A stretch of DNA of 31,148 bases from NCBI GenBank assembly GCA_020053185.1, contig JAGVNP010000311.1, positions 1 through 31,148 on the forward strand, in the 5' to 3' direction. Below, one piece after another: positions 11,233 to 30,300 of this stretch (position 1 is the first letter of the stretch; the number at the start of each line of letters is the position of its first letter). Origin of the DNA: Deltaproteobacteria bacterium (GTDB lineage: Bacteria; Desulfobacterota; Desulfomonilia; UBA1062). The position numbers were made by a program, and so were the translations under genes. The notes below the pieces were generated by a model, which did no database searches, was not told where the DNA came from, and was given only the letters and a program-made list of their open reading frames with translations.

Positions 11233-11724
11233 ATGAGAAAATTAGTAGCATTACCCATTATGGTTTTCTTTGTGCTTATAGGTCTTGCAGCCTATGCGGC
11301 AGATCCGCTTGATCTTAAGATGGCAGGCTTTCTTGTGACAACCGCAGTGGATCAGGATGGCAACAAGATGGAAAAGCTCGAAGCGCTGCCTGAAAAGGTT
11401 CAGCCGGGTGATATCATAGAGTATGTCCTTTCCAGCCTGAACAAAGAAGACGCAAGCCTGCATCATGTCACCCTGTCTGCAAAAATGCCTGAGGGCACTG
11501 TGTATACAGGGTCTCAGAAATGTCCTGAGGGCACAAGCGTGGTGTATTCGATCGACAAAGGCAAGACCTTTTCTGCCGGGCCAATAAAATATGTTGTGAT
11601 CGAGGACGGCAAAGAGATCGAGAAGACCGCAACGCCTGACATGTACACCAACATGCAGTGGCTCATTAAAGAGATCAAGTCCAAAGATGTGGCCAAGTGT
11701 CATTACAGGGTCACGGTGAAATAG
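11233..11724 (+). CDS. Small exported single DUF11-type (TIGR01451-like) domain protein, C-terminally incomplete fold (operon gene A)
   Basis: AAGGAG RBS; signal peptide MRKLVALPIMVFFVLIGLAAYA; VQPGDIIEYVL...MPEGTVY.GS...YSIDKGKTFS...WLIKEI...YRVTVK-stop. Confidence 0.85.
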   Translation: MRKLVALPIMVFFVLIGLAAYAADPLDLKMAGFLVTTAVDQDGNKMEKLEALPEKVQPGDIIEYVLSSLNKEDASLHHVTLSAKMPEGTVYTGSQKCPEGTSVVYSIDKGKTFSAGPIKYVVIEDGKEIEKTATPDMYTNMQWLIKEIKSKDVAKCHYRVTVK

Positions 11725-11790
11725 TGAAAAGTGAATAGTAACGAGTAAATAGTGAAAAGTAAAAAGTGAAGAGTAAGAAGAGTAAAGAAG
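11722..11790. repeat. Heptamer array after gene A
   Basis: TAGTGAA AAGTGAA TAGTAAC GAGTAAA TAGTGAA AAGTAAA AAGTGAA GAGTAAG. Confidence 0.7.
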
Positions 11791-11954
11791 TGATGAACCA
11801 GCAAAAAAGCCGACACAGTGTCATTCCCGCATCATTTTCTGTCATTCCCGCGGAGGCGGGAATCCAGGGGTTGTGCAATTATCAGAGAATACTGGATTCC
11901 CATTTGCATGGGAATGACAACGGGTATGTTTTCCGACTTTTTACGAGATCATCA
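11791..11954. repeat. Composite palindromic MITE/REP-like element, copy A
   Basis: Core GTCATTCCCGCGGAGGCGGGAATCCAG...CTGGATTCCCATTTGCATGGGAATGAC (11841-11918) inside imperfect outer inverted repeats TGATGAACCAGCAAAAAAGCC / GACTTTTTACGAGATCATCA. Confidence 0.8.
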
Positions 11955-15160: not shown

Positions 15161-15227
15161 TCGAGGCTAAAGGCTAAAGGCATGAGGTGAACTTACACCT
15201 TAAGCCTTTAGTCTAAGCCTTACTCGA
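15161..15227 (+). other. Long imperfect stem-loop built of 7-mer units directly after gene B
   Basis: TCGAG...AGGCTAAAGGC-ATG-AGGTG-AACTTA-CACCT-TAA-GCCTTTAGTCT...CTCGA. Confidence 0.6.
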
Positions 15228-15234
15228 AGCAGTA

Positions 15235-18200
15235 ATGGAAAATGGCCTCATGAAAAGAAAAGCCTCATTAGGGCTGAAAATACTTTTACAGGCAGGGGTT
15301 ACCCCTCACCTTGCTGTCATTCCCGCGGAAGCGGGAATCCAGAAAAAGATGAGCAAAGAACCTGGATTCCCGACCTGGTCGGGAATGACAAGACTGATGG
15401 ACCTTTTCCGGTTTACGAATCACGGTTTACGAATCACGAATTACGAATCACGAATTACGAATTACGCCCTACGTTTTACGCTTTACGTAATAGCAGCGTT
15501 GCTCGGCATTTTTGTTGCTACAGGAAGACCTGCGTTAGCATTCACCGAAGCGGGCACTCATATTTATAATACTTCATTTGCAACATATGAAGACACAGAC
15601 GGCTTTATCTATCATATTCAATCCAATACCGTAGAATTAACAGTAGCCCAGGTGTATGCGATCAATATCACACCTGACGGCACAACCGCCTCGCCAGGTC
15701 AGAAAAAAAATGCATATCCGGGCGGAGAGGTTTATTTACCATATGTACTTACAAACCCTGGAAACGGCCCAGACTCATATCAGCTTGATGTAGAAAATCT
15801 ACCTGGCGATGATGAGGATCTTAGCAATCTTAAAATTTATATCGATGAAAATCAGAACGGGGTTGTTGATCCATCAGAGCCTGTTTATGATAACACCAAT
15901 CCTCCGCTCATTGATTCAGGTGGGAGGCTCTATCTTGTAATAGCAGGCACAGTTCCTGCATCTGTGGCTTCAGGCACGATTTTTGTAAATGTGAACGGGA
16001 CTTCAAACGGAGATGGGACAAAGGTCGATAATGAAAATGTTTCAAAAATCAACATAACAGCAGATGGGTTTATCGAGGCATACAAGTCTGCTGACAAAAC
16101 CGAAGTAGACCCCGGTGGTACGGTTACCTTTACCATAGAATTCCAGAATAAAGGCTCAAAGCCTGTTTTGGGCACAGATATCTTCAACTGTAATGGCGAT
16201 TTTGATAATGATGGGACAACAGAGACAGCAGAGCAAGGGCTTCTGGTAGCTGATGTTGTACCGGATCATCTGACCTACATCGACGGAAGCGCCACATGGG
16301 CGCCGTTGCAGGGATTCCCCGTGTTTGCAGGCACAAACGGGATCTGGAAGGACGATGCCTCTGATGTAACTGGCTCAATTGAGTCAGTAGGGCTCTTTAT
16401 ACCTGAGGATGCATCTGGCGAGACACTTGTGCCGGATCAGGGCGGATTTGTTTCTTTCCGATGCACGGTAAATACTGATGCGCCGGTAAGTACAATTTCG
16501 AACACAGCAGAAGTTAAATATGCAAATTTAAACGGGCACCAGGTCACACCTACCAATACGGTAGAAGTGGATATACTTCCCAGAATAGATATCCGGGCTG
16601 ATGACACGGATGAAATCAACGAACCCGAGCACGAAGGCTCTGGAGTAGCGTCAGACGAGCATGATGTGATGTGGATCGACCATGCTGCATCCGGGGCGTG
16701 TATAAGCTTTGAAAATGAGGTTTGGAATCTCGGGAATGTAGACGATGTGATCAATGTCACATTTGATCAATCAAGATCTGAAAACCTGCCAGATGGCGCC
16801 GCTACCACTGGGGTCCTGTTCTATAACTTAGACGGCGCACTGCTGACAGACAGCAACGGCGACGGCAAGCCAGATGTAGGCGTTGTAAGTCCTGGAGAAA
16901 GCGTTCACTTTATCACAAAGGTCTGTTTCCCTGAAGGGAGTTCCGCGAATGATGTAGTGATTGCAGTAGAAGGTTCTTCCAGCCTGGACCCCAGCAAGAC
17001 CGATCTCACATTTAACAGGACCGGTGAAGTAGTGGCAGCTTCTGTCAAAGTGAATGTCATTGTTGGGAATACAGAAGAGCCCTGGGTCAAGAAAAAAGTT
17101 ATTGTTTATGAATATGACTGCTACGGAAACCTTACAGATCAAAAGGTTTTCTGGACCGATAGTAGCGGATTTATCGCATATGATGAATTTGGCAATTCCT
17201 CTCCCCTCTACAACTGGATAGAGGATAGTGACCCTAACGACCCTGACTGTAAATATACCTACAGAATAGGGCTTACCGAAGACTACTCGGGCTTTACTTA
17301 TTATGTATCCCCTGGATTCTCCAAGTCAGATATTGACCAGACAACCTCCTCCGATGAAACCCCCAAGCCTGGCACAGGGGGAAAGATCACTACTCAGAAG
17401 CTTCCAAGCGGGGGAAAAGTGTTGTCGGCCAGCATTGATCCTGCAGGATATGTCTATGATGGGGTGACAGGAGAGCGCATAGACAGGGCATGTGTCGTAC
17501 TTTATAAATGCAATGATAGTTCCTGCTCCAGCTATACTGCTGTTGATGCATCACTCCTTGATGTGTATCCTGACGGAAGCACGTTACAGGACAATCCGCA
17601 GGTCTCAGGCCCTACAAATGGGTCTGGCACTGATGTGGGAAAAGGCGATGGGGCCTTTGAGTTTAAGTTTTCTGATTTTACGCCAACAGATGAAGGGTGG
17701 TATTTTGTAGAGGTTGATTTTGACTGCGGGCTTCCTGCCAGCGATGCAAATCTGGCAAATGATTATAATCCTGTATTGCTTAATTCCGGCGCCACATGGG
17801 ATCCTTCTTCAGGAGCGCCTTACCATGGCCAGCGTTTCTATATTGATGCAACCAATTCCGGCGCAATAAACATGAGGATTCCTTTGCTGCCAGCGGATTT
17901 TGTTCCTATTGAGATCAAAAAAGAGGTGAATAGCGATATTGCATCCATAGGCGATCCGCTCAAGTTCACCATTACAGTAACGAACCCTAGCCCATACACA
18001 TGCTATGATGTGGATGTAATTGATACGCTGCCAAAAGAGCTTCGGTACAGAAAAGGCACAACAACCATAGACGGGGCTAAAGCCGATGATCCTGAGATCT
18101 CTTCTGATGCAAGAATGCTTACATGGAATATAGGAAACCTTGATCCGGGCGGTAGTGTAAAAATCACGTTTTATGCAATAGTAGGTGCAAACATCACAGA

Positions 18201-20583
18201 AGGAGCAAAGAGGGCTAATGTTGTCCGGGCTTTAGGGTGGAGCGACGACAACCATTCCTATCCAATAGAATCCAGTCCGGCCTATGCATATTTCAAGCTC
18301 ACAAAAGGTGTATTCACTGACAAGGCCTACATCATAGGCAAGGTGTTCATAGATGAGCCGAATTGCGAGCAGCTCTCTGGCGAAATTGCCATCACCAGGA
18401 CCATAGAATATAGTCTGGAAGATTCTGCCAAAGACAAAGACGCGAAAATAGCAACCTTACTTGCCGGACAAAAAGACAAATCAAACTTTGCCTCTTTAGA
18501 CAGGATGATCCTCATACACAAAGTCTTTATCCATAATAAATCACAGTATCCATTTTACTCGATCTCTTACAAAGAAGACTCAGCCTTTAAGCCGATAAAA
18601 GGAAGCTCGTTGCTGGAAGGAGACCTGATCCATGATCCCAAAGCCGGGGATGGCGCGCTTATCTGGAAGATAAAAGACATAGAGCCGGGCAAGGTTGTTG
18701 TTCTGACATTTGCCTCTGAGTCTAAAGATAGTGATGTAGATGAGATAAAATGCGAGATACCGTTCAGCATTGAAAAGGACAATATCAAAAAAGACCTGAA
18801 GGTTGAGCTTCCAATTATATTCAAGATGCAATCCCCGGATGAATATCAGCTCGCGGTGTATTTTGATTTTGGAAAATATAACCTCAGCCAGAATGATAAA
18901 GCAGCCCTTGATAAGGTCATAAAGACCGTCAAGGCCAAGGGATACAAAAAACTTTATGTAAGCGTCAAGGCCTACACTGATTCTGTAAGGGTTATGAAAG
19001 AAGAGGAGCGGGCCTTCCAGGATAATCTCCAGCTTTCAGGACAAAGGGCTGAAACCGTAAGGAAATATCTGGCAGACCAGCTCATTGAAATGCAAAAGGT
19101 TGAAGTGGTGCATGAAGATGTAAAGCCTGTGCTGAAAAATACATTCAGTATAAAAGTCGTCACATCTAATGACCGGGCTTCAATCTCCAAGTCAGAGAAA
19201 ATTTTGAAGGACAAAGAAATTCCTTCATTTGTACAGGAAAAGATTATTAACTATAAAACAAAGGAATACACCTTATATGCAGGCGGCTTTGACAAGAAAG
19301 AGACCGCTGAAGCTGCTGTAAAAGAACTTTCCAAGGTGTTTAATGACGGGTTTGTAATCGAGCCAACGTCTGTTGAAAAGATTTTCCTTGATGAAAACAT
19401 CCTCTACCAGATCGAGGCATTAGGGCCTCTTGATCCCAAGGTTGAAAACCTGCTCTCTTCAGTCGGCACGCCTCAAAACCGCAGGGCTGAAGTAAAGATC
19501 ATCCCTATTAACATAGGAAACTATTCAATGAATCTAAGCAGAGTCGCAGGAGCAGAATGCGATGTATGCGGAAACGGCATCCAGGATAATAATGAGCAGG
19601 GTGTTTCCGGAGTAAAGATATACATGGAAGACGGCAGATATGTCGTCACTGATTCTGAAGGCAAGTATCACATAGACAATGTAGATCCCGGCATACATAG
19701 CTTGAAGGTAGATAACACAACCCTGCCGCCAGGCACTTCTCTTGCCATAATAAATAACCGCAATATGGATGATCCGGAATCCATGTTTGTAGATCTGTTC
19801 CCCGGGGACATCTTCAAAGCCAATTTCAGGCTATGTCCAGGGCCAAGACTGGAGGCTACAGAAAAAATATGTGATCCGCTTGTGAGCAGTATAAGGGTTA
19901 CCAGAACGATCAAAGACATTTTGATAGACCCGGGCTCAGGGCTGATACGGCTCAAGCATGAAATCATAATAGAAAATCATTCGGATCTTCCGCTGTTCGA
20001 GACCACGTACAAAGAGGTCTCGGCATATAAAATAGTGCCTGGTACAGTATCTTTCAACGGATCTCCGTTCAAAGATCCCAAGTACAAAGACGGTGCATTT
20101 ACATGGAATCTCACGCTTGTAAAGCCAATGGATGAGATCCATATATGCTTCACATCAGAGACCCCGCAAAAATCAACAGATATAAATGCAACGCTTGAGT
20201 TCAGGGCTAAGCCGATAGCCACCCCCAAGGAGATCAAGGTGGAGTTGCCTGTTCATTTTGCAAGTAGAGAAAAGAGCATCTATGAACTCACGGTTTACTT
20301 TGATTTTGGAAAATACAATCTCAGGCCTGATGCCGTAAAGACCCTGGATAAGATCATCGAGACTCTCCGGAAGAAAGACTATGACATGGTCTATGTCTGG
20401 ATAAGGGCACATACAGATGCCACCAGGGTCGATCCGAGCAAGCTGGAATATGAAAACAATCCGGAGCTTTCAGAGAAGCGGGCAACCATTGTCAGGGAAT
20501 ATCTGAAAGCCGGGCTTATCGATATCAAGAAGATCAAAGTCCAATCAGGCGAGCCTGACGGCAAAACAGGCGAGGGAAAATAG
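15235..20583 (+). CDS. Exported DUF11 / SdrD-B-like / OmpA-like / SPOR multidomain protein, candidate peptidoglycan-binding anchor (operon gene C); true start may be 15385 or 15397
   Basis: h-region VIAALLGIFVATGRPALA, then FTEAGTHIYNTSFATY; the first ~500 mature residues are paralogous to gene B. Two DUF11 domains; SdrD-B-like GNGIQDNNEQGVSGVKIYMEDG..VTDSEGKY; OmpA-like VYFDFGKYNL...YTD...LS..RA...NRRAEV with a SPOR insert; a second, half OmpA-like domain at the C-terminus. Confidence 0.88.
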   Translation: MENGLMKRKASLGLKILLQAGVTPHLAVIPAEAGIQKKMSKEPGFPTWSGMTRLMDLFRFTNHGLRITNYESRITNYALRFTLYVIAALLGIFVATGRPALAFTEAGTHIYNTSFATYEDTDGFIYHIQSNTVELTVAQVYAINITPDGTTASPGQKKNAYPGGEVYLPYVLTNPGNGPDSYQLDVENLPGDDEDLSNLKIYIDENQNGVVDPSEPVYDNTNPPLIDSGGRLYLVIAGTVPASVASGTIFVNVNGTSNGDGTKVDNENVSKINITADGFIEAYKSADKTEVDPGGTVTFTIEFQNKGSKPVLGTDIFNCNGDFDNDGTTETAEQGLLVADVVPDHLTYIDGSATWAPLQGFPVFAGTNGIWKDDASDVTGSIESVGLFIPEDASGETLVPDQGGFVSFRCTVNTDAPVSTISNTAEVKYANLNGHQVTPTNTVEVDILPRIDIRADDTDEINEPEHEGSGVASDEHDVMWIDHAASGACISFENEVWNLGNVDDVINVTFDQSRSENLPDGAATTGVLFYNLDGALLTDSNGDGKPDVGVVSPGESVHFITKVCFPEGSSANDVVIAVEGSSSLDPSKTDLTFNRTGEVVAASVKVNVIVGNTEEPWVKKKVIVYEYDCYGNLTDQKVFWTDSSGFIAYDEFGNSSPLYNWIEDSDPNDPDCKYTYRIGLTEDYSGFTYYVSPGFSKSDIDQTTSSDETPKPGTGGKITTQKLPSGGKVLSASIDPAGYVYDGVTGERIDRACVVLYKCNDSSCSSYTAVDASLLDVYPDGSTLQDNPQVSGPTNGSGTDVGKGDGAFEFKFSDFTPTDEGWYFVEVDFDCGLPASDANLANDYNPVLLNSGATWDPSSGAPYHGQRFYIDATNSGAINMRIPLLPADFVPIEIKKEVNSDIASIGDPLKFTITVTNPSPYTCYDVDVIDTLPKELRYRKGTTTIDGAKADDPEISSDARMLTWNIGNLDPGGSVKITFYAIVGANITEGAKRANVVRALGWSDDNHSYPIESSPAYAYFKLTKGVFTDKAYIIGKVFIDEPNCEQLSGEIAITRTIEYSLEDSAKDKDAKIATLLAGQKDKSNFASLDRMILIHKVFIHNKSQYPFYSISYKEDSAFKPIKGSSLLEGDLIHDPKAGDGALIWKIKDIEPGKVVVLTFASESKDSDVDEIKCEIPFSIEKDNIKKDLKVELPIIFKMQSPDEYQLAVYFDFGKYNLSQNDKAALDKVIKTVKAKGYKKLYVSVKAYTDSVRVMKEEERAFQDNLQLSGQRAETVRKYLADQLIEMQKVEVVHEDVKPVLKNTFSIKVVTSNDRASISKSEKILKDKEIPSFVQEKIINYKTKEYTLYAGGFDKKETAEAAVKELSKVFNDGFVIEPTSVEKIFLDENILYQIEALGPLDPKVENLLSSVGTPQNRRAEVKIIPINIGNYSMNLSRVAGAECDVCGNGIQDNNEQGVSGVKIYMEDGRYVVTDSEGKYHIDNVDPGIHSLKVDNTTLPPGTSLAIINNRNMDDPESMFVDLFPGDIFKANFRLCPGPRLEATEKICDPLVSSIRVTRTIKDILIDPGSGLIRLKHEIIIENHSDLPLFETTYKEVSAYKIVPGTVSFNGSPFKDPKYKDGAFTWNLTLVKPMDEIHICFTSETPQKSTDINATLEFRAKPIATPKEIKVELPVHFASREKSIYELTVYFDFGKYNLRPDAVKTLDKIIETLRKKDYDMVYVWIRAHTDATRVDPSKLEYENNPELSEKRATIVREYLKAGLIDIKKIKVQSGEPDGKTGEGK
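15316..15389. repeat. Palindromic element core, copy B, within the longest possible 5' end of gene C
   Basis: GTCATTCCCGCGGAAGCGGGAATCCAG...CTGGATTCCCGACCTGGTCGGGAATGAC; reads VIPAEAGIQ...GFPTWSGMT in frame. Confidence 0.8.
15411..15487 (+). repeat. Heptamer array encoding the n-region of the gene C signal peptide
   Basis: TTACGAA TCACGGT TTACGAA TCACGAA TTACGAA TCACGAA TTACGAA TTACGCC CTACGTT TTACGCT TTACG; reads TNHGLRITNYESRITNYALRFTLY. Confidence 0.75.
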
Positions 20584-20651
20584 GGGAGAAATTTGCGAAT
20601 TTCGAATTTCGAATTGAAGAACGAGGAACGAGGATTAAGGATTATGAATTA

Positions 20652-20794
20652 TGATGATTTCATAAAAAGTCAAATATCCTGTCACTCCCGTTCTATTTCT
20701 TGTCACTCCCGCGGAGGCGGGAGTCCAGAACTGCTTTCTGGAAATTCCTGGATTCCCGTTTGCATGGGAATGACTGCTTTTTGCGGATTCACCA
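20652..20794. repeat. Composite palindromic element, copy C, between genes C and D
   Basis: Outer TGATGATTTCATAAAAAGTC ... GCTTTTTGCGGATTCACCA; core GTCACTCCCGCGGAGGCGGGAGTCCAG...CTGGATTCCCGTTTGCATGGGAATGAC at 20702-20774. Confidence 0.78.
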
Positions 20795-20795
20795 A

Positions 20796-20946
20796 AGGTT
20801 ATGAAGGTTAAGGGGTAGGGATTAAGGGATTATGGTTCAAGGTTCAAAATACATGGTTCAGGGTACAGGGGAAAATTTCGAAATTCGAAATTCGAAATTC
20901 GAAATTCGGAACACCCTGCGCCTTATACCTTATACCTTACACCTCT
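20796..20946 (+). repeat. Composite heptamer cassette spanning the RBS, start codon and n-region of gene D
   Basis: TAAGGG/GGTTCA units, then (TTCGAAA)n, then (ACCTTAT/ACCTTAC)n; a related array sits at 20589-20651. Confidence 0.75.
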
Positions 20947-23900
20947 CACTTGTATTTTTCATCCTGCTGTGCCTTATGCCCTTGAGCGGGTATGCACAAA
21001 CCTCGAACTCCGATCCCCGAACCCTGACCCCTGACCCCCGATCCCAGAACATTGCTTATTCCATCCAGATCGGGCCAAACATGGACAAGCCAGGCGCTGA
21101 ATCCTTTTTAAAGACTCTCCCGGATGCAGTGAAGAACAAAGATGCCTTTATATATCAGACAGACAAAGGATACTGGACTGTTCGTGTGGGTATTACAGAA
21201 AAGCCGGAAGGGTTAGATGAGCTCAAAAAATGGCTGGCATCTGAAGGCATTGAAGATGCAGCTGCAGTAAAGACAGACATACGGAAGGTCAGTGGTCAGT
21301 GGTCAGGAGCCAGGAGTCAGGAGTCAGGGATCAAAGGTGAAAGCTCAAAGGAAATAACTCCGCAAACCACAATCCGAGATTCGAAATTGAAAGATGAAGC
21401 ATTGATTCTGCCTATGATCGATAAGGTCTATTCTACGCTCTGGTCTGTACAGCTCGGATCATACAGCGATAAACAGACCATGGAAGCCTTTTTTCAGAGT
21501 CTTCCTGATTCAGTGAAGCGCAAAAATGCCTTTATATATAAAGGTAAGCGGGGATATTGGGCTGTTCGTGTGGGTTTTGCAGAAAAGCCGGAAGGCTTGG
21601 ATGAGCTAAAGGCATGGCTGGTCTCTCAAGGGCTTGAAGACATACATATGGCGAAGACTGAAGTAAAAAAGATAGAGTCCAAAGAGCTGAGAGATAAGTT
21701 GCTTGGTCGTTCTGTAAAAGAAGCGGACACAAAGACTCTAGAGCCCGAGGAAGACGAGTGGAAGACCATTTACAGTGTGCGGCTATTGAGAACAGAAAAC
21801 CTGAAACAAGTACAAAATGCAACCATAGATATAGAATCCAAGGGCATTCCCACATTCATGAGCGAGAACATCACGTATTTTAAGAAGAGGCTGTACACAC
21901 TCTATGTGGGAAGATTCTTGAGCCAGGATGAAGCTGAGAAGGCAGCTGCTGAATTATCGAAAAAATACGGCAAATGTCCTGTTGACCCATTGTTTACACG
22001 AACAATAGGTGGCGACAGCCTCGGAGACATATTCTACCTTGACGCAATGCATACCCTGGAGCCAAAGGTACCTAACAGACTTTCTACATCAGGCACTCAG
22101 GAAAATCGCCGCGCCGAAGTACTGATATTGCTCTTCAAGGAAACCACAGAGTCGGTAGAAAAGTCCTTTATGGAAAAAGGCAAAGGAAGTCAGTGTATCT
22201 TTAAATTTTATGCAAACTATCTCTATCCCCTTGAAGAGATTTACGATATCAGCGCCTTCATGAGCCTTCCTGAAGGGTCAGCATATGTGGATGGTAGCTT
22301 TGTGATAAATGAAATCCCTGTTACAACAGCGAAGAAAGGCAGATATATTGTTGCCTCTACAGAAAAGCTCATCGGGTATGATCCATTTACCATGAGCATA
22401 AATGTGGCCGGAAGAGAGGATATAAAAACAGAGGAGATCCACTATGTGGTTTATGGAAAGACAAGAAACGGCAAGACGCTAAAGCTTGTTACCTCGAATG
22501 ATGAGATAATGGAAAATGAAGCACTTGCTATCTATCTTCCAAATCCCACACCCGAGAAGATGGAAGAATCTGAGGTAAAGGCGCTTATCAGGAAACCTTC
22601 TTTCGGCATCATTTATCCTGAGAGGAATATCATTGTCTCAGGCAAGCAGACAGATATCGATGTGGCAATCCCCGTGAAGTCCGAATACAAGCTGCTCATA
22701 AATGGCAAAGAAGCTGATAAGAAGAACCTGTCAGAGACAGCCACGGATGAAAAGCTTGGAGTTAAGGTGGTAAGCTACACAGCAGTAGCTTTGGAAGATG
22801 GCGAAAACCACATAAAGATTATTGTTGACGGGAAGCCTTTTGATGAAAAGCAGATTACTGTAACAGGAAATGTGGCGCGTCTTAGCTACGAGATCTATCC
22901 TAAAGAGCCGTCTGCAGACGGCAAATCGAGCGCATATGTTATGGTGCGGCTCCTTGATAAGGATGGTAAGCCTGTAAAACAGAATGCATATATAAAGGTC
23001 TACGTTGATAAAGGTGATATCTTCGATGACGAGACCGATTCGTTCAAGCGTTTTGATGATGACGGATTTGAGGCACGGGTAATAGCAGGCGAGGCTACCA
23101 TAAAACTTTCCCCTGCAAGCACTACAGAAAAACGCAGTATGAAGGTGGAGTTTGGCGATGGTCTTGAAAAAGATATCGATGTGCGCTTTTATCCTGAGAA
23201 GAGACCCTGGATAGTAAACGGCGTGATTGAAGGCACTTATACTGAGAGTAAGACGAAAAATTCAGATGAGGCTCTTGTCGAATATCCTGCAGATCATTCT
23301 GAAGAGGGCTCGCATACTGATGTTGACGGCGGAGTGTTTGCAAAAGGCAGTGTCAAAGATTATACCCTGACATTTAAGTATGAAAATAAGCCAAAAGATG
23401 AAGACATAATTCTGGAGCAGAACATTCCATCTACAGAAGAGGAGCAATACTATCCTGTATATGGCGATGAGTCAGAGCAGTTCTTTGAGGCAGCCTCCCA
23501 GGACAAGTTTTTTGTCAAGGCAGAGCGGGGCCTGTCCTATTTCATGCACGGAGATTTCAAGACAGATCTGAAAGCCCCTCAGCTGGAATACAATGTCTAT
23601 GACAGAACGCTTAATGGAGAAAAAATCAATCTTGAAGTGAAGGATAATTTCAAGATCACAGGCATACATTCATATACATCCCAGGATATAGTGAAAGACG
23701 AGCAGCCGGGCCGGGGCGTTTCAGGGCCGTATTTCTTTGGAAAAGGCATACCTGTTGAGTTCAGTGAAAAAATCTACATCGAAGTGAGAGACCGGTATCA
23801 TCCGGATAGAGTGCTTGACAGGCAGGATCTCAACAGGTTCACCGATTATACTGTAAACTATGATGAAGGCTGGGTTCTGTTCAAAGAGCCTGTACATCAA

Positions 23901-26453
23901 TATGATGATAATTTTGATCTGCAATATATCGTTATAATCTATGAGACTAATACGCTGGCTGAAGACAAGCATGTCTTTGGCGGAAGGGCAGAAAAAGAGC
24001 TGATAAAAGGCCTGCGTATAGGCGGTCTTGCTGCAAGCGAAGAGAGGGATGTTAAAGACAGGCTGGTAGGCGGCCTTGATATCACATATGACGACGGCAA
24101 AGGACTAAAGTTTGTTGCAGAATATACGGCTGCAGACGGATATGATGAGATTGCCCTAAAAGAAGTATCAGGTGATGCAAAAAGGGCTGAGATCTCTTAT
24201 GATAAGGAATTCAAGAAATTTACAGAAAAAGGAAACGCCTATTTTACCGATGTTGAAGACGAGTTTCAGAATCTGTCTACCAGCGCCATCATAGATGGTA
24301 AACAGGCCTATGGCGCCAAAGAGGAGTTTAAGGTAAAGAAGACAAAGACGACGTTGTCTGCAGAAGCCTACAGCGAAGAGGAAAAAGACGGAAGCTCTAC
24401 AACAAAGGTTGCATCTGCCGAGGTGAAACAGGAAATCGGAAAGAAAGTTTCGCTCACTGCAGGCGCAAGGGTGATCAATGAAGAAGAGCCTCCGGATGAA
24501 AGAGATATTACCCAGGTCATAGGCGGGATAGGCATAAAGCCTATAGAAAAATTGAGCATTAATGTAAGAAGAGAGCAGTCTCTCGTGGATGACGATGAGG
24601 AAAAATCAGACCGCTATCCTTCCAAGACAGTAGCAGGGATAAAATATAGTCTTACGAAGAAGACATCGGCATATGTAACCACTGAACTTCAGGAACTGCC
24701 TGAAAAAGACGTTGCCCTGACAACGTTCGGCACAGAGACCTCGCTCACGAAAAACACCACTGCCTTTGCAAAATACACGATCGATGACAGCATTAGTGGC
24801 TGGAGAAATCAGGCTCACTCTGGGCTTAACCATTCGTGGGCGATCGAGGATAATTTCTCAATAAGTGTAGGCGGAGAAGAGGTCAGAACGTTATCCGGTG
24901 ATGACAGCGAAGATTATACGGCATCGAACATAGGTTTCCAGTATTTTCAACCTGATAAGAAAAAATATACCATGTCTGGAAAATGCGAAGCGCGGTTTAA
25001 CAATGAAACAGACAATGAGTATGTAATGAGCTTTGGCGGCACACTCAAGATCGCAAAAGACTATACCATACTTGCGCGGGAGAGATTTTTCGATTCAGAG
25101 TTTGACGAAAACGACCTTCTCTTAGGTCTTGCATACAGACCTGTTTCCTATGACAAATTCAATAGCTTGATGAAATTCAGATATAAATGGATAGAAGAGA
25201 GTGAAGAGGAGAAGATAGTAAAATATATAGGGTCATGGCATGCCAACTATCAGCCCAACAGAGATCTTACCCTCATGGGAGAGTATGCATTCAAGATCGT
25301 TGATGATGGGCTACACACCTACACGGATCTTGCACGCTTACGGGTTTTGTATGATGTGACAGACAGGATAGATTTAGGGGTGCATGGCGGCGTTCTGATG
25401 CAGCATGATACAGATACATACAGCCTTGCATACGGGCCAGAGGTCGGCGTTAGGGTGATCAAGAATGTATGGGCAAGCGCAGGCTACAACTTCTCGGGCC
25501 TTACGGATGAAGATTTTGACGATGCAAGCGCCTGGAACAAGGGTTTTTACTTCAAGCTGAGGGCAAAGGTTGACGAAAATACGCTCTCAGATATTAAAAA
25601 AGCAGTAAAGAGGAACCCGAAGGAAAAGAAGATCGAGGCATCAAAAGAGACAGTAAAAAAGATAGAACCTTTGATGGATTCAGATAATGATGGCGTGCCT
25701 GACTCTAAGGATAAGTGTCCTGATACACCGAAAGGTGTAGCGGTTGATAAATCTGGATGCCCCATAGACAGTGACAATGACGGTGTAGCTGATTATTTAG
25801 ACAAATGTCCAGACACACCAAAAGGTGTAAAGGTAGACGGGTTTGGATGTGCTCTTGATAGCGATGCAGATGGTGTTCCTGACTATCTTGACAAGTGTCC
25901 TGATACACCGAAAGGCGTTAGAGTTGATAAGGTCGGATGTCCCCTTGATAGCGATAAAGACAGTATTCCTGATTTTCAGGATAAATGTCCGGAAACGCCT
26001 TCTGGTGTAGCTGTGGATCTGACAGGCTGTCCGCTTGATAGTGATGGTGATAATGTTTCTGATTACCGGGACAAATGCCCTGGTACGCCAAAAGGCGTAG
26101 CAGTTGATGAGAATGGATGCTGGACGCTTCATGGTGTGTTGTTCGAGTATAAAGAATGGAAACTTAAAAAAGCGATTTATCCCAGCCTGAAAGATGTGGT
26201 TAAGGTGCTGAAGGCGAATCCGGAACTTAAGATAGAGGTGCAGGGTCATACTGATAATATTGGAAACGATAAGTATAATCAGGATCTGTCAAATAAGCGT
26301 GCAAAGGCTGTAGCAGATTTTATTATCAGCCAAGGCATTGCAGCGGATAGGATTTCATATAAGGGTTATGGATTTTCAAAGCCAATTGCTTCGAACGATA
26401 CAGAAAAAGGAAGGGCGATGAACCGCAGGGTTGAGTTCCAGCCAATCTATTAA
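20832..26453 (+). CDS. 1873-aa outer-membrane protein: 3 SPOR, half OmpA-like, Ig-like domains, large predicted beta-barrel, 5 TSP3-like repeats, C-terminal OmpA domain (operon gene D)
   Basis: TAAGGGA RBS; signal peptide ending PLSGYA; SPOR-like YSIQIG...YWTVRVG; alternating amphipathic strands from RPWIVNG (~23200) to GFYFKLRAKVDE (~25575); DSDxDGVPDxxDKCP repeats; canonical GHTDNIG...LSNKRA...GYGFSKP...NRRVE. Confidence 0.88.
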   Translation: MVQGSKYMVQGTGENFEIRNSKFEIRNTLRLIPYTLHLSLVFFILLCLMPLSGYAQTSNSDPRTLTPDPRSQNIAYSIQIGPNMDKPGAESFLKTLPDAVKNKDAFIYQTDKGYWTVRVGITEKPEGLDELKKWLASEGIEDAAAVKTDIRKVSGQWSGARSQESGIKGESSKEITPQTTIRDSKLKDEALILPMIDKVYSTLWSVQLGSYSDKQTMEAFFQSLPDSVKRKNAFIYKGKRGYWAVRVGFAEKPEGLDELKAWLVSQGLEDIHMAKTEVKKIESKELRDKLLGRSVKEADTKTLEPEEDEWKTIYSVRLLRTENLKQVQNATIDIESKGIPTFMSENITYFKKRLYTLYVGRFLSQDEAEKAAAELSKKYGKCPVDPLFTRTIGGDSLGDIFYLDAMHTLEPKVPNRLSTSGTQENRRAEVLILLFKETTESVEKSFMEKGKGSQCIFKFYANYLYPLEEIYDISAFMSLPEGSAYVDGSFVINEIPVTTAKKGRYIVASTEKLIGYDPFTMSINVAGREDIKTEEIHYVVYGKTRNGKTLKLVTSNDEIMENEALAIYLPNPTPEKMEESEVKALIRKPSFGIIYPERNIIVSGKQTDIDVAIPVKSEYKLLINGKEADKKNLSETATDEKLGVKVVSYTAVALEDGENHIKIIVDGKPFDEKQITVTGNVARLSYEIYPKEPSADGKSSAYVMVRLLDKDGKPVKQNAYIKVYVDKGDIFDDETDSFKRFDDDGFEARVIAGEATIKLSPASTTEKRSMKVEFGDGLEKDIDVRFYPEKRPWIVNGVIEGTYTESKTKNSDEALVEYPADHSEEGSHTDVDGGVFAKGSVKDYTLTFKYENKPKDEDIILEQNIPSTEEEQYYPVYGDESEQFFEAASQDKFFVKAERGLSYFMHGDFKTDLKAPQLEYNVYDRTLNGEKINLEVKDNFKITGIHSYTSQDIVKDEQPGRGVSGPYFFGKGIPVEFSEKIYIEVRDRYHPDRVLDRQDLNRFTDYTVNYDEGWVLFKEPVHQYDDNFDLQYIVIIYETNTLAEDKHVFGGRAEKELIKGLRIGGLAASEERDVKDRLVGGLDITYDDGKGLKFVAEYTAADGYDEIALKEVSGDAKRAEISYDKEFKKFTEKGNAYFTDVEDEFQNLSTSAIIDGKQAYGAKEEFKVKKTKTTLSAEAYSEEEKDGSSTTKVASAEVKQEIGKKVSLTAGARVINEEEPPDERDITQVIGGIGIKPIEKLSINVRREQSLVDDDEEKSDRYPSKTVAGIKYSLTKKTSAYVTTELQELPEKDVALTTFGTETSLTKNTTAFAKYTIDDSISGWRNQAHSGLNHSWAIEDNFSISVGGEEVRTLSGDDSEDYTASNIGFQYFQPDKKKYTMSGKCEARFNNETDNEYVMSFGGTLKIAKDYTILARERFFDSEFDENDLLLGLAYRPVSYDKFNSLMKFRYKWIEESEEEKIVKYIGSWHANYQPNRDLTLMGEYAFKIVDDGLHTYTDLARLRVLYDVTDRIDLGVHGGVLMQHDTDTYSLAYGPEVGVRVIKNVWASAGYNFSGLTDEDFDDASAWNKGFYFKLRAKVDENTLSDIKKAVKRNPKEKKIEASKETVKKIEPLMDSDNDGVPDSKDKCPDTPKGVAVDKSGCPIDSDNDGVADYLDKCPDTPKGVKVDGFGCALDSDADGVPDYLDKCPDTPKGVRVDKVGCPLDSDKDSIPDFQDKCPETPSGVAVDLTGCPLDSDGDNVSDYRDKCPGTPKGVAVDENGCWTLHGVLFEYKEWKLKKAIYPSLKDVVKVLKANPELKIEVQGHTDNIGNDKYNQDLSNKRAKAVADFIISQGIAADRISYKGYGFSKPIASNDTEKGRAMNRRVEFQPIY
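21049..21672 (+). repeat. Tandem duplication of a SPOR-like domain within gene D
   Basis: AFIYQTDKGYWTVRVGITEKPEGLDELKKWLASEGIED vs AFIYKGKRGYWAVRVGFAEKPEGLDELKAWLVSQGLED (27/38 identical by hand count). Confidence 0.8.
25674..26123 (+). repeat. Five 90-bp (30-aa) thrombospondin type-3-like Ca-binding repeats
   Basis: xDSDxDGVxDxxDKCPxTPxGVxVDxxGCx five times, exactly 450 nt. Confidence 0.9.
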
Positions 26454-26454
26454 T

Positions 26455-26574
26455 TAAGGGGTAAGGATGATGACACAGGGTTCAGGGGACAGGGTTCAGG
26501 GGAAAATTTCGAAATTCGAAATTCGAAATTCGAATTACACCTTACACCTTACACCTTACGCCTTACGCTTTACG
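26455..26574 (+). repeat. Composite heptamer cassette at the start of gene E
   Basis: TAAGGGGTAAGG-ATGATG-ACACAGGGTTCAGGGGACAGGGTTCAGGGG-(TTCGAAA)n-(CACCTTA)n. Confidence 0.75.
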
Positions 26575-26994
26575 ATAATCTTGATATTCGCCATGATTGT
26601 TGCATCGCCTGTCCATAGCCAGGAAGCAGTTAATCTTTCGCAGGTTGAGCATAAGATCACAGTTGCATCGCAAGGAAGGATAGAAGTCAGTCTCAATCTT
26701 TACAATGACCTTGGTGAAGATATATCTTTAACAGCAGACAAGTGTTGAGGGCTGTCAGTGACCTTCCCGGCGGGAAGTGAGGTAAAAGGCGGTGAGATGA
26801 AACCTGTTGTGATAAACACAACAAAACAAGATACTACAGTGAACATAAAGTTTCAGGGCAAACAAGCAAGCGGGAGCCTGAAAGTGATACTAGAGAGAGA
26901 AAAGAAACAGGTGAAGGCAGTGGAGAGCAAAGCTAAAAATATCCCCATGCCTTCTCCAGAAGTGAAGTATGAAGAAGAAGGAAATAGGGATTGA
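26467..26994 (+). CDS. Small exported beta-rich protein with an in-frame TGA at 26746-26748 (possible selenoprotein, or a nonsense-disrupted gene) (operon gene E)
   Basis: ORFs 26467-26748 and 26758-26994 are in the same frame, separated only by TGA-GGG-CTG-TCA; reads ...LTADKC*GLSVTFPAG...; signal peptide IILIFAMIVASPVHS. Confidence 0.65.
26763..26777 (+). promoter_or_regulatory. Candidate bacterial SECIS hairpin
   Basis: CTTCCC-GGC-GGGAAG; the loop starts 20 nt after the UGA and begins with GG. Confidence 0.45.
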
Positions 26995-27031
26995 GGATAA
27001 AAACAGGATTATGGGGTATGGATTAAGGATT

Positions 27032-27186
27032 ATGGTTTTGCAAGAAAGTCCTCATTCTCGTTTTATTTCTGTCATTCCCGCGGAGGCGGGAATCCAGAGA
27101 TCGTACAACTGTCAGAAAATACTGGATTCCCATTTGCATGGGAATGACATGGAAATGATTTTTTCGACTTTTTGAGAGAGCGTTAA
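27032..27186. repeat. Composite palindromic element, copy D, between genes E and F
   Basis: 78-bp core at 27071-27148 with both arms identical to copy A; outer arms ...GCAAGAAAGTC / GACTTTTTGAGAG... Confidence 0.8.
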
Positions 27187-27397
27187 GGGTGAAGGTAAAA
27201 GGTTTCAGTAGGGTATAAAGGCTGAATGTTAATTAAGGGGTAAAATGATGGTTCAGGGTTCAGGGTTCAGGGTTCAAGGTTTAGGGCGAAATTTCGAAAT
27301 TCAAAATTCGAATTTCGAAATTTGCAATTCGCAATCCGCAAATCGCAATCCGCAAATCGCCCCACACCCTACACCTTACACCTTATACCTTAAACCC
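27185..27397 (+). repeat. Composite heptamer cassette at the start of gene F
   Basis: (GGGTTCA)3; perfect 14-bp inverted repeat AAATTTCGAAATTC / GAATTTCGAAATTT (27289-27323); CGCAATC/CGCAAAT units; CACCTTA units. Confidence 0.75.
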
Positions 27398-30300
27398 TTG
27401 TTAGCCATTCTTTTTATCATTGCCTCTTTTCTTATACCCTTTAAAGCCTCTGCAGCGAGCACGTCTCTTGTTATCAATGAGGTGATGTTTGATCCAACAG
27501 GCGCTGATACCGGCTTAGAATGGATAGAGTTTATCGCAAGGAACGATGTAACTATAACAGGGTGGGACTGCTTAGATAAGGATAGTAACACATATACATT
27601 CCCTAGCCTTAGTTTAAAAGCTGGCGAGATCGTGGTCCTGCATATAGGCACGGGCACAAATGATCTTACAGGGCCTGTATATAACCTGTATACCAATGGA
27701 GCCGCTACAACATGGCTTGACAATGTTGGCGACAGTATCCGGCTTAGGAATGGATCAGATGCTGCAGTAGATTATATGGCATACGGAAATGCCGGCGCTT
27801 GGTCTGGCTATACATGGACCAACAACATTGATATTACGTATATCTATGAAGGCCTCAGCATCGGCCTTAGCAGGGACGGGATAGATACTGATAACGGCAC
27901 TGGATGGACAGAGTATTCTACCTCTACATCTGGCAACCCCAATAAGACCTCCGGCATAGGCGTAGTAAAGACAGGAACAGAAGAGATATCAAGGGGAGAC
28001 GCAGCCGGCGGAGAATACACACTAACCATCGCAAACAGCGGTGACGGGCCAGCCTATGGCAGCGCATCATCGCCATATGGCATGGTTGTTGTGGATGACT
28101 ATCCGACAAACTTCTCTGTGTTATCTGTGACATCGGTGACGAGAAACGGGATAACATTCTCGTCGTATTCCCAGTCAAATGATGGCGATAAGATTACGTT
28201 TACAAGTCTGCCTGTGCTTATGCCAGGGGATACGCTGGAGATCAAGTTTAAGTTCTATGTGGACTGCGTTGCAACTATCGGATACAAGACAAATCTTGTA
28301 ACCGCAAAATATCACGACCTTCCTGACCTTTCAGATGCAGAAAAGAATGAGCAGGCTGTTTTGGATACCCTTGTGGACAAAGGCACGCTGGTGGTGAAAA
28401 TGGAGGCCATTGCCATAAACGGCACTCCCATAACACCTACCCCCACACCTGCGGCAGAGGTCGGCGAGACAATAAAGGTAAGGGTTTCGCTGCATAATAC
28501 AGATAACGGCAAGCTTTTTGATGTAGCATCAGCGACAACATGGGGAACAGGGCTTACGTATGTGGGCAATCTGGTATGCAATAATGTCACGTGCAGCTAC
28601 GACAGTGTAAATACAAAGGTAACTTCCACAGTCTCTGAAATTCCTCCGAGTACAATAGATAATACCTACTCATACACCTTTGACGTAAGGGTAGATGCAT
28701 GTGAAAATCTCACATCAACCTCTACCGGCACTGGAAAGTGCCTGGCAGCAGGAGGTATCGAGGAAGGGGTTGAGGTCATTATAAAGACCCCGGATATTGA
28801 TTATACCCTGCCTACCATAAGCATCCCTTATGCAGGGACCCAGTCAGTAAGCATCCCTGTTACAAACAACGGCAACGGCAAGGCATATACATTCAGCCTG
28901 GATACCAACATGGAGAGCCTGCCACTTAGCGTGTCAAATATCGCATCTGGATGGACATACAATGCAGGCACAGGGGTATTTACCTATAGTGCAGCATCGT
29001 ACATTTTGCCAGGGGCAACTATCCCGCTTACCTTTGACCTCGCAACCTCTGTAAGCTGCGCTGACAGAAGCCCTTCAGGCATGATAACCTTTACGCCGCT
29101 GTATTACAACGGCTGCACGAAAGCGTTTGCTGCGCCGCGCAAATACACGACCTTTTCCACTACAAACGTACCTGTTGTCACAATAGCAAAAACAACCCCA
29201 AACACATATGTGCATGTGGGTGATCCTGTGTCGTATACTGTTACCTTGGGCGCATCTTATCCGTCCGGCATATCCGGGAACATTGTGGTCACAGATACTG
29301 TGCCGAGCCAGATAGTAAGTGTAGGCGCATCTGCAACAGCAGGGTCTGTAACAGTGTCGGGCAATGATATTACCTGGACCATTGCTCCCGGAGTGGCAGA
29401 TGGTGAAGTCCTTACCATCACCGGCACAGTGGATAGCGACCCTTGTCTCCAGGGAACAACGATAACCAATTCTGCCTCATTTACTGCAGCAGATACTCAG
29501 GGCTGTCCTTTGGCAGGCTCCGGCTCGGCTACCATATATATAAACAACAACCCTGATGCTACAATTGCCCAGCAGAAGTCTGTGATTGGGTCTTTGGAAG
29601 CATGCAACCCTGCTGGCATTACCATAACAAACACATATACCATGGGCACCGGAGTTTCTGGCACCTGGGCAGGCTCTTCATTTAAAGACGACCTGCACAG
29701 CGGAGGCCTCTGCTATATGACCGGCACTGCCGAATACAGACTTGATACAGATGACGGCTCGGGCACAGCATGGACAGCATGGACAGCAATCTCATCTGGA
29801 AATTTGAGCATTGGCTCCAACGGCGAGCTCCAAGTAGATCTCTCGTTCCTGGCAGCAATAGACGGAGATGCGAATGTTGCAGGCAATGATATTCAGATAA
29901 GATACAAAGTCTATGTGTGCGAGGAAAACCTTGGCGGCGCAACATCTGTGACATGGGATTTGCTCTCAACCCTGCATATAGAGGGTAACACTGGAAGCTG
30001 TGGATCTAACGGAGATTATGTCCAGCATCTGCTTCTGGATCTGTATACTGCGTCCATAGCCCTTGCCATAGACATACCTGCAATAATAGAAGACTGCGGC
30101 GTATATGATGCAACGATCACTGTCTCGATGGACACGCCTGCTCCTTACTATGATCTGATCATTGATATGCCTGTAGGAAACTATGAATATCTGGACAGCC
30201 TTGTTGCGTCAGGATTCAATGGCCACACGCCCGTTGTCAGCACCTTAACTGGTCCTGCAAGGGTGAGGTTCAGCTTTGATTTTGATACCAACAATCCTGA

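What the first reader, a model, noticed from the sequence alone, without database searches (positions are those of the whole stretch)
20281..22133. An OmpA-like domain is split across two genes (end of C, interior of D)
C ends with the first half of an OmpA-like domain (YELTVYFDFGKYNL...AHTD...LSEKRATIVREYL...stop, 20281-20583). The missing SPOR insert and closing strands occur in D at about 21762-22133 (KGIPTFMSENITYFKKRLYTLYVGRF...YLDAMHTLEPKVPNRLSTSGTQENRRAEVLIL). They match the intact copy in C (KEIPSFVQEKIINYKTKEYTLYAGGF...YQIEALGPLDPKVENLLSSVGTPQNRRAEVKII). D has its own RBS and signal peptide, so this is not a simple frameshift. Inference: fission of an ancestral C-D fusion inside a domain, at a point now filled by repeats. 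The halves may re-associate in the periplasm to clip the anchor to the barrel.
Basis: partly seen in the sequence, partly recalled or inferred. Interest (0 to 1): 0.75.

Follow-up and report, generated by a model that had tools for sequence, protein, structure and literature searches.

The report
OmpA-like domain split across two genes
Two neighbouring genes for giant envelope proteins each encode part of one peptidoglycan-binding (OmpA-like) domain, the same split is kept in distant bacteria while other relatives have one fused gene, so this looks like a real gene fission whose two pieces probably refold together in the periplasm.

Summary
Gene C (15235-20583) ends with strands 1-2 and the helices of an OmpA-like domain. 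Gene D (20832-26453) carries, after a signal peptide and two extra SPOR domains, the SPOR insert and closing strands 3-4. The two pieces align end to end with an intact copy inside C: residues 6-93 at 44% identity and 103-224 at 35%.

It is not an assembly or frameshift artefact. Eleven loci from other assemblies (Aquificota and kin; a few are near-copies) have the same split, and the C-like gene stops at the same point. In 9 of the 11 the D-like ATG overlaps the C-like TGA, and 10 of the 11 called D-like products start with a signal peptide.

Fused single-gene relatives exist in Desulfobacterales and in many distant homologues, so fused is probably the older state. One or two fission events cannot be told apart.

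Both halves keep every family-invariant residue. In Aquificota pairs they evolve under purifying selection (dN/dS 0.06-0.26).

A confident model of the intact copy puts the break in a flexible linker. A complex prediction puts D's last strand between C's two strands (score 0.75, best control 0.01). That pass leans on the known fold.

Reassembly is predicted, not shown. I found no paper describing a split OmpA-like domain.

The parts
15235..20583 (+). Gene C: signal peptide, DUF11/CLIPPER repeats, SdrD_B, an internal intact OmpA+SPOR module, and a C-terminal half OmpA-like domain
   Evidence: ORF; Pfam; orthologues P0013, P0022, P0026 and loci L011-L024
18829..19500 (+). Intact paralogous module inside C: OmpA strands 1-2 and helices, SPOR insert, OmpA strands 3-4
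   Evidence: Pfam OmpA 1-80 plus SPOR; AF2 model with pLDDT 91.1 and pTM 0.83; Foldseek hits to OprF, FopA1, Pal and OmpA C-domains
20281..20544 (+). N-half of the split OmpA-like domain (strand 1, helix 1, strand 2, long helix). It carries the ..HTD.. and ..LSxKRA.. motifs
   Evidence: Pfam OmpA positions 1-78 of 98, 47.7 bits; 44% identity to the intact copy; all family-invariant residues kept
20545..20583 (+). Short linker tail of C (13 residues after ..KIKV) and the TAG stop. It corresponds to the low-confidence linker of the intact copy and to the linker of fused relatives
   Evidence: alignment A3; model pLDDT 63-80 at residues 89-100
20584..20831 (.). Intergenic spacer made of heptamer tandem repeats and palindromic GTCAYTCCCGCGGAGGCGGGARTCCAG-type elements, with stops in all three frames
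   Evidence: the same elements lie upstream of B and C and downstream of D; a metagenome run shows very high depth only over these repeats
20832..20996 (+). D start and predicted Sec signal peptide. The n-region is encoded by heptamer repeats, followed by a hydrophobic core and ..SGYA|Q
   Evidence: read from the sequence; 10 of the 11 called D-like products start with a signal peptide
21045..21671 (+). Two leader SPOR domains (tandem duplicates at 21045-21287 and 21429-21671), found only in split D-like proteins
   Evidence: Pfam SPOR; direct repeats D5 and D7 at 72-83% nt identity; BLAST hits only to N-terminal SPORs of split D-likes
21762..22007 (+). Insert-type SPOR domain, homologous to the SPOR inserted in the intact copy and in fused relatives
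   Evidence: Pfam SPOR 29.2 bits
22008..22133 (+). C-half of the split OmpA-like domain: strand 3, loop and strand 4 (..NRRAEVLIL)
   Evidence: invariant P, N, G, T, N, R, R, E kept; predicted to insert between strands 1 and 2 of C
22134..26453 (+). Rest of D: conserved middle region, a putative large outer-membrane barrel without a Pfam family, then five TSP3 repeats and a complete canonical OmpA domain
   Evidence: Pfam; homology to D-like and fused proteins; the barrel is inferred only (Atlas lead below 0.9)

Best explanation
C and D are the two products of a gene fission that cut a giant envelope protein inside an OmpA-like peptidoglycan-binding domain, in the flexible linker that precedes a SPOR domain inserted before strand 3. 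C carries strands 1-2, the helices and the two residues that bind the peptide stem in solved OmpA-like domains (the Asp of ..TD.. and the Arg of ..LSxxRA..). D carries a new signal peptide, two leader SPOR domains, the insert SPOR and strands 3-4. Both proteins are exported separately by Sec. In the periplasm, D's hairpin completes C's half-sheet, with strand 4 lying between strands 1 and 2. The result is one OmpA-like domain that clips C non-covalently to the outer-membrane protein D and to the wall. Shown here: the complementary halves, the conserved split, the fused relatives, and conservation and selection on both halves. Inferred: export, refolding together, wall binding, and D being a barrel.
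For: The halves are complementary. The same split occurs in 11 further loci from other assemblies (a few are near-copies): L011-L014, L017, L020-L024, L028. The C-like gene always ends just after ..LIDxxxVxV. In 9 of the 11 the D-like ATG overlaps the C-like TGA, and 10 of the 11 called D-like products start with a signal peptide. In 121 sampled Aquificota genomes the locus turned up in about 6, split wherever both halves were matched. Fused relatives have the module at the same place. Both halves keep all invariant residues: F, L, L, D, N, L, S, R, V, L, L in C and P, N, G, T, N, R, R, E in D. dN/dS of the halves in four Aquificota pairs is 0.06-0.26, against 0.08-0.22 for the rest of the genes. 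A fused relative that lost the C-half also lost the TD and RA motifs (L031/L032), which shows what decay looks like in this family. The AF2 model of the intact copy (pLDDT 91.1) puts the break in a linker of pLDDT 63-80, and the fold matches OprF, Pal and OmpA. Complex prediction gave a median score of 0.75 against a best control of 0.01. That mark was reached by 58 of 80 solved complexes and 2 of 110 mismatched pairs. The runs agree in at least 62% of contacts and the partner pLDDT is at least 56. D residues 127-134 lie between C residues 6-12 and 43-49.
Against: There is no experimental or expression evidence. The complex pass may come from the model's memory of the OmpA-like fold, and my own alignments were used, so the calibration holds only roughly. 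No close relative of this window's lineage was found, so selection on these two particular halves could not be measured. In this genome the genes are 248 nt apart rather than overlapping, a terminator-like hairpin lies between them at chance frequency, and C and D each also hold a complete OmpA-like domain, so the split copy could be redundant here. The contig comes from a 78%-complete MAG, and no read or contig bridging the junction was available.
Confidence: 0.77

Rival explanations
1. The halves are leftovers that no longer meet. D's head works only through its SPOR domains, and C's tail is a decaying stub, made redundant by the complete OmpA-like domains elsewhere in C and D.
For: C has an intact internal module and D has a complete C-terminal OmpA domain, so redundancy is possible. 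Some fused relatives have let the domain decay (L027, L031/L032). The ATGA coupling seen in other lineages is lost here.
Against: Both halves in the window keep every residue that is invariant across split and fused relatives, despite about 60% divergence elsewhere in the proteins. In Aquificota pairs the halves are under purifying selection. The split has been kept across lineages as far apart as Hydrogenothermaceae and Desulfurobacteriaceae.
Confidence: 0.12
2. Artefact: a misassembly at the repeats or a sequencing error broke one continuous gene in this MAG.
For: The genome is a fragmented MAG with 340 contigs. The spacer consists of repeats that are abundant in metagenomes. No bridging read was available.
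Against: Fusing the genes would require removing 248 nt with stops in all frames and changing frame. D has a signal peptide and two leader SPORs that fused proteins never have. The same gene order and the same break occur in 11 other loci from other assemblies.
Confidence: 0.03
3. The halves do fold with a partner, but not with each other. For example, C tails could swap with other C molecules, or D's hairpin could dock on a different half-domain.
For: Nothing specific. It cannot be excluded without an experiment. The only other OmpA-like match in the own genome is a weak one on contig C199.
Against: No other half-domain exists in the genome. The two halves are always adjacent and mostly translationally coupled. 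The prediction places D's strand 4 in the canonical central position of C's sheet.
Confidence: 0.06

Closest known systems
OmpA-like peptidoglycan-binding domain (Pfam PF00691; Pal, OmpA C-domain, OprF, MotB)
   Same: Same fold and motifs. The intact paralogue models as beta-alpha-beta-alpha-beta-beta and matches OprF 5u1h, Pal 1oap and OmpA 4rha. The Asp and Arg that bind the peptide stem in solved complexes are present (from knowledge of PDB 3td5; listed).
   Different: The domain is encoded on two polypeptides with separate signal peptides, and a SPOR domain is inserted before strand 3. I found no paper describing this.
Fused C-D giant proteins (P0003, P0004, P0005, P0006, P0011, P0019; Desulfobacterales loci L016, L019)
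   Same: Collinear homologues at 37-46% identity over about 2000 aa, with the same OmpA-N / SPOR / OmpA-C module at the same position.
   Different: They are one polypeptide, with no internal signal peptide and no leader SPOR domains.
Split C-like | D-like pairs of Aquificota and kin (L011-L014, L017, L020-L024, L028)
   Same: Same break point, and the same D head: signal peptide, leader SPORs, usually the insert SPOR, then strands 3-4.
   Different: Their genes overlap by ATGA or lie 3 nt apart, their C-like protein has no internal intact module, and their D-like protein has no C-terminal TSP3+OmpA.
Donor-strand complementation in chaperone-usher pili (from established knowledge, not tested here)
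   Same: An incomplete sheet in one protein is completed by a strand from another after Sec export, giving a very stable non-covalent joint.
   Different: Here two strands complete an alpha/beta OmpA-like fold rather than one strand completing an Ig fold. No chaperone or usher is evident.
Natural split proteins from gene fission (e.g. Split-Doa10, PMC3464245; split cox2, PMC5374615; titles and abstracts seen)
   Same: Fission of one gene into two complementary genes whose products are thought to reassemble.
   Different: The cut lies inside a small globular periplasmic domain, and the downstream piece acquired a new signal peptide.

Membership tests
OmpA-like domain (PF00691) | Profile match above the Pfam gathering score | tested here: met
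   C tail scores 47.7 bits against a cut-off of 27.2, but covers only positions 1-78 of 98. The remaining positions are supplied by D (alignment A3).
OmpA-like domain (PF00691) | Closing strand with the NRRVE-type motif | tested here: met
   Present as ..NRRAEV.. in D aa 425-430, on the other polypeptide.
OmpA-like domain (PF00691) | Conserved Asp (..TD..) and Arg (..LSxxRA..) of the peptide-stem binding site | tested here: met
   Both are invariant in alignment A4 and present in the C tail (D51 and R72 of the fragment). Their role is taken from solved structures, not tested here.
OmpA-like domain (PF00691) | beta-alpha-beta-alpha-beta-beta fold with a four-stranded sheet | tested here: inconclusive
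   Met for the intact paralogue (pLDDT 91.1; Foldseek prob 1.0 to OprF, Pal and OmpA). For the split pair there is only a predicted complex (0.75 against control 0.01), which may reflect memory of the fold.
OmpA-like domain (PF00691) | Binds peptidoglycan | not testable with these tools
   Needs a pull-down with purified sacculi.
SPOR domain (PF05036) | Profile match above the gathering score | tested here: met
   D aa 314-382 scores 29.2 bits alone and 56.2 bits for whole D, against a cut-off of 21. The leader SPORs score 42.2 bits.
Gene fission pair (split gene) | Single-gene relatives that cover both products collinearly | tested here: met
   P0003, P0004, P0005, P0006, P0008, P0011, P0019, L016, L019, L027.
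Gene fission pair (split gene) | The break is reproducible and is not a frameshift or stop artefact | tested here: met
   11 other loci share the break point. 10 of the 11 called D-like products start with a signal peptide, and 9 of 11 have the ATGA overlap.
Gene fission pair (split gene) | Both pieces remain under purifying selection | tested here: met
   dN/dS is 0.06-0.26 for the N-half and 0.10-0.17 for the C-half in Aquificota pairs, with dS near saturation. For the window's own lineage there is only motif conservation.
Gene fission pair (split gene) | The products physically reassemble | not testable with these tools
   There is only the prediction.

The most novel reading that the evidence does not exclude
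The split OmpA-like domain is an obligate heterodimerisation device. Wall binding appears only once the stalk protein C has docked on the outer-membrane protein D, so the cut works as an assembly checkpoint for a still undescribed DUF11/CLIPPER envelope structure. The same cut may have arisen twice independently, in the window's lineage and in the Aquificota-type clade.
Probability: 0.25. Interest if true: 0.8.

Novelty: new variant of a known kind. Interest (0 to 1): 0.66.

Why it matters
OmpA-like domains are the standard wall anchors of diderm envelopes and have been treated as single folding units. A version that is naturally cut in two, kept that way across distant lineages and mostly translationally coupled would have three consequences. 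It would show that the fold tolerates, and can exploit, two-chain assembly. It would give a concrete handle, namely which protein is clipped to which, on an uncharacterised and widely scattered operon of giant DUF11/CLIPPER proteins with a large outer-membrane component. It would also offer a natural split-domain pair that can be tested by co-expression, including thermophile versions. The fused and split relatives side by side are a ready-made comparison for asking what the fission bought.

Tried and rejected
1. No homologue of the module was found in 40 relatives of the window's genome.
2. The word-based protein search with D's head returned only the window's own protein. With a C-like alignment it was swamped by generic DUF11 proteins.
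3. The single-sequence AF2 model of the intact copy was poor (pLDDT 60.6). It was replaced by the alignment-based model.
4. Sequencing runs: only one landfill metagenome run held parts of the stretch (share 0.08). Laid out, it gave short low-depth contigs of a near-identical strain, for example 21746-22071 with 8 differences. None bridged 20584-20831, so the junction could be neither confirmed nor refuted.
5. The metagenome scan for close relatives of D found none.
6. A frameshift or read-through fusion in the window was rejected: there are stops in all frames and an own signal peptide.
7. No Rfam family matches the spacer, and the spacer's fold is not unusual (z = -1.25).
8. There is one terminator-like hairpin in the spacer, at chance frequency.
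9. The number of fission events could not be settled. A branch with 99-100% SH-aLRT support sets the Aquificota-type split clade apart from the window and the fused forms, but the AU test does not reject a single split clade (p = 0.096, 0.32, 0.16).
10. The Atlas look-up for D's barrel region scored below 0.9 and is a lead only.
11. The organism could not be named.
Full report
WHAT IS IN THE SEQUENCE

The window is a whole 31,148-bp contig of a 1.78-Mb, 340-contig, 78%-complete MAG. It is chromosomal: glyQ, glyS, recO and moeA lie upstream. Two long co-oriented ORFs cover the finding. C is 15235-20583 (1782 aa) and D is 20832-26453 (1873 aa).

Pfam finds two OmpA matches in C. One is internal (aa 1209-1293, profile positions 1-79) and is followed by a SPOR domain. 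The other is at the very C-terminus. On its own, the last 100 aa of C scores 47.7 bits against OmpA (cut-off 27.2) but covers only profile positions 1-78 of 98.

BLASTP of the intact internal copy (18829-19500) aligns its residues 6-93 to the C tail (44% identity, E 7e-24). Its residues 103-224 align to D aa 311-432 (35% identity, E 1e-19). The two matches are complementary and do not overlap.

THE JUNCTION

C stops at TAG 20581-20583. D starts 248 nt later in another frame, and all three frames have stops in between.

The spacer consists of heptamer tandem repeats and palindromic elements. The same elements lie upstream of B and C and downstream of D. In a landfill metagenome run they are covered hundreds-fold while the genes are covered about 3-fold. 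They are this organism's usual intergenic furniture, not something specific to this junction.

D's first 55 residues form a plausible Sec signal peptide, with an n-region read from the repeats, a hydrophobic core and ..SGYA|Q. Two near-duplicate leader SPOR domains follow (72-83% nt identity over the repeated stretches). After them come the insert-type SPOR and the closing strands.

RELATIVES: BOTH SPLIT AND FUSED FORMS EXIST

An exhaustive HMMER search of 1.84 billion representatives with the intact module found only 56 proteins at E <= 1e-3. Among them:
- Proteins that end in the N-half: P0013, P0022, P0026, P0041.
- Proteins that carry the SPOR plus C-half near their N-terminus: P0018, P0033.
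- Proteins of 2245-3493 aa with the whole module in the middle: P0003, P0004, P0005, P0006, P0011. P0019 is an N-terminally truncated record of the same kind.

Local BLAST with pieces of C and D shows that the long proteins are collinear C-D fusions.

The contigs encoding P0013, P0022 and P0026 show the same operon order as the window: a small DUF11 protein, a B-like protein, a C-like protein ending in the half domain, then a D-like protein.

A scan of one genome per species found 12 loci. Every Aquificota locus that includes the junction is split (Hydrogenothermaceae, Persephonella, Thermovibrio and others). The two Desulfobacterales loci are fused.

The metagenome scan added more split loci (L028/L029, L030), fused loci (L027) and dozens of distant fused homologues.

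Across the 11 split loci outside the window:
- The C-like gene ends right after ..LIDxxxVxV.
- In 9 loci the D-like ATG overlaps the C-like TGA. One has a 3-nt gap. One (L012) probably has the overlap too, behind a poly-T problem in the assembly.
- 10 of the 11 called D-like products begin with a signal peptide followed by SPOR. L012's called start lacks one.

In 121 sampled Aquificota genomes the locus was found in about 6, and it was split wherever both halves were matched. This rules out an assembly or frameshift artefact as the general explanation.

ARE THE HALVES MAINTAINED?

Alignments of the N-halves (A4) and of the SPOR plus C-halves (A5) cover split and fused members. They have 11 and 8 invariant columns respectively. 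These include the Asp of ..TD.., the L-S..R of the helix, and P, N, G-T, N-R-R-x-E of the closing hairpin. The window has all of them.

For four pairs of Aquificota split loci, dN/dS is 0.06-0.26 for the N-half and 0.10-0.17 for the C-half, against 0.08-0.22 for the rest of the genes. dS is near saturation, so these values are rough.

One fused relative gives a useful contrast. L031/L032 has lost the SPOR and the C-half, and its N-half has also lost the TD and RA motifs. That is what decay looks like in this family, and the window does not look like that. No close relative of the window's own lineage was found, so selection in this particular lineage rests on motif retention alone.

STRUCTURE

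With a 27-row alignment, the intact copy models at pLDDT 91.1 and pTM 0.83. Its elements are:
- strand 1: residues 7-11
- helix: 21-37
- strand 2: 42-48
- long helix: 66-88
- linker: 89-100, the only weak stretch (pLDDT 63-80)
- SPOR domain: 101-188
- strand 3: 191-197
- strand 4: 219-223

Foldseek matches the OmpA-like domains of OprF, FopA1, Pal and OmpA. The natural break falls in the weak linker. In canonical OmpA-like proteins, the segment ..KVEV.. before the break and the segment ..YQIEALG.. after the SPOR together align to the single strand 3. In the model only the second segment forms the strand.

A complex prediction was run with the C tail (105 aa, A4) and D aa 300-440 (A5). It gave a median score of 0.75, against a best control of 0.01. 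That mark was reached by 58 of 80 solved complexes and 2 of 110 mismatched pairs. The runs share at least 62% of contacts and the partner pLDDT is at least 56.

D residues 127-134 (..RRAEVLIL) lie between C residues 6-12 and 43-49, and D's strand 3 lies on the other side of C's strand 2. This is the canonical sheet order. The pass is for the halves of a known fold and used my own alignments. It shows that the pieces are compatible with the fold, not that they bind.

HOW IT PROBABLY WORKS

Both proteins are exported separately. The following steps are inferred. D is inserted in the outer membrane. Its periplasmic head presents SPOR domains and a two-strand hairpin. C's C-terminal half domain has only two of the four strands and is unlikely to be stable alone. 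It holds the stem-peptide-binding Asp and Arg and folds onto D's hairpin. The result is a wall-binding domain made of two chains, which also ties C to D.

The ATGA overlap in most lineages fits production of the two proteins in matched amounts. In the window that coupling has been replaced by a repeat-filled spacer.

The topology of C's long DUF11 part (periplasmic or surface-exposed) is not resolved. That D's C-terminal ~750 aa form a barrel rests on a weak lead only.

POLARITY AND NUMBER OF EVENTS

All distant homologues are fused, so fused is the likelier ancestral state. In trees of the D body and the C body, a branch with 99-100% SH-aLRT support sets the Aquificota-type split clade apart. 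The window falls with, or basal to, the fused forms.

The AU test does not reject one clade of all split forms (p = 0.096, 0.32, 0.16). The leader SPOR domains of the window's D match only the N-terminal SPORs of other split D-likes (38-52% identity) and match no fused protein. That argues for a common origin of the D head. One fission, possibly with later re-fusions, and two fissions both remain possible.

COMPARISON WITH WHAT IS KNOWN

The parts are ordinary: OmpA-like, SPOR, DUF11/CLIPPER (renamed in the isopeptide survey, bioRxiv 10.1101/2025.04.25.650565, seen), SdrD_B and TSP3. An OmpA-like domain with a SPOR insert also occurs in unrelated CHAT/TPR proteins (P0007, P0014, P0020).

What I did not find described is an OmpA-like domain divided between two gene products. 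In mechanism it resembles donor-strand complementation and other natural split proteins. I rate it a new variant of a known kind.

VERDICT

Reassembly of the halves is likely but only predicted.

Noticed in passing
window 18340-19600 (C aa ~1040-1450): The window's C is about 500 aa longer than any other C-like protein. A block made of a DUF11-like domain plus an intact OmpA/SPOR module is inserted just after ..GKVFIDE, at the start of the SdrD_B domain. The block is as diverged from the window's own C tail and D head (44% and 35%) as from other lineages' versions, so it is not a recent local duplicate.
   Followed up: partly
window 25683-26450: D ends with five thrombospondin type-3 repeats and a complete canonical OmpA domain. 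Every other D-like or fused relative seen lacks this and ends at the ..GFYFKxRxKFDE motif.
   Followed up: partly
window 11716-11919, 15164-15490, 20590-20950, 26475-26575, 27006-27400: Heptamer tandem repeats and palindromic GTCATTCCCGCGGAGGCGGGAATCCAG-type elements bracket each gene of the operon. They encode the start codon and signal-peptide n-region of C, D and the ORF at 27245. A landfill metagenome covers these elements hundreds-fold.
   Followed up: partly
window 21066-21256 and 21450-21640: The two leader SPOR domains of D are tandem duplicates (72-83% nt identity, 384-nt period).
   Followed up: yes
L031:1093-3342 and L032:2-1624: A fused relative, among the most similar to the window's D (46% identity over 977 aligned columns), has a decayed OmpA N-half (TD and RA motifs lost) and lacks the SPOR, strands 3-4 and the first ~150 aa of the middle region. 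The assemblies also carry frameshifts.
   Followed up: partly
L012:11700-11770: A run of ten T lies just after an ATG that overlaps the C-like TGA. The called D-like start downstream lacks a signal peptide. A one-base length error in the run would restore a signal peptide starting at the overlapping ATG.
   Followed up: no
L017:9365-9380: In a Thermovibrio MAG the C-like and D-like genes are in the same frame, separated by a single TAA and one codon before the D-like ATG. The D-like protein still has its own signal peptide.
   Followed up: partly
P0007, P0014, P0020: The OmpA-N / SPOR / OmpA-C module also occurs inside TPR + CHAT-type proteins that are otherwise unrelated to C and D, so the SPOR-in-OmpA insertion is a mobile module of its own.
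   Followed up: no
P0008:1183-1335: One fused relative has the OmpA-like domain without any SPOR insert, only a short lysine-rich linker.
   Followed up: no
window 22134-25680 (D aa 434-1650): About 1200 aa of D have no Pfam or NCBIfam family, yet are conserved at 37-45% identity across Aquificota, Desulfobacterales and others, and at 22-33% in many distant fused proteins. This is an undescribed family, probably an outer-membrane one.
   Followed up: partly
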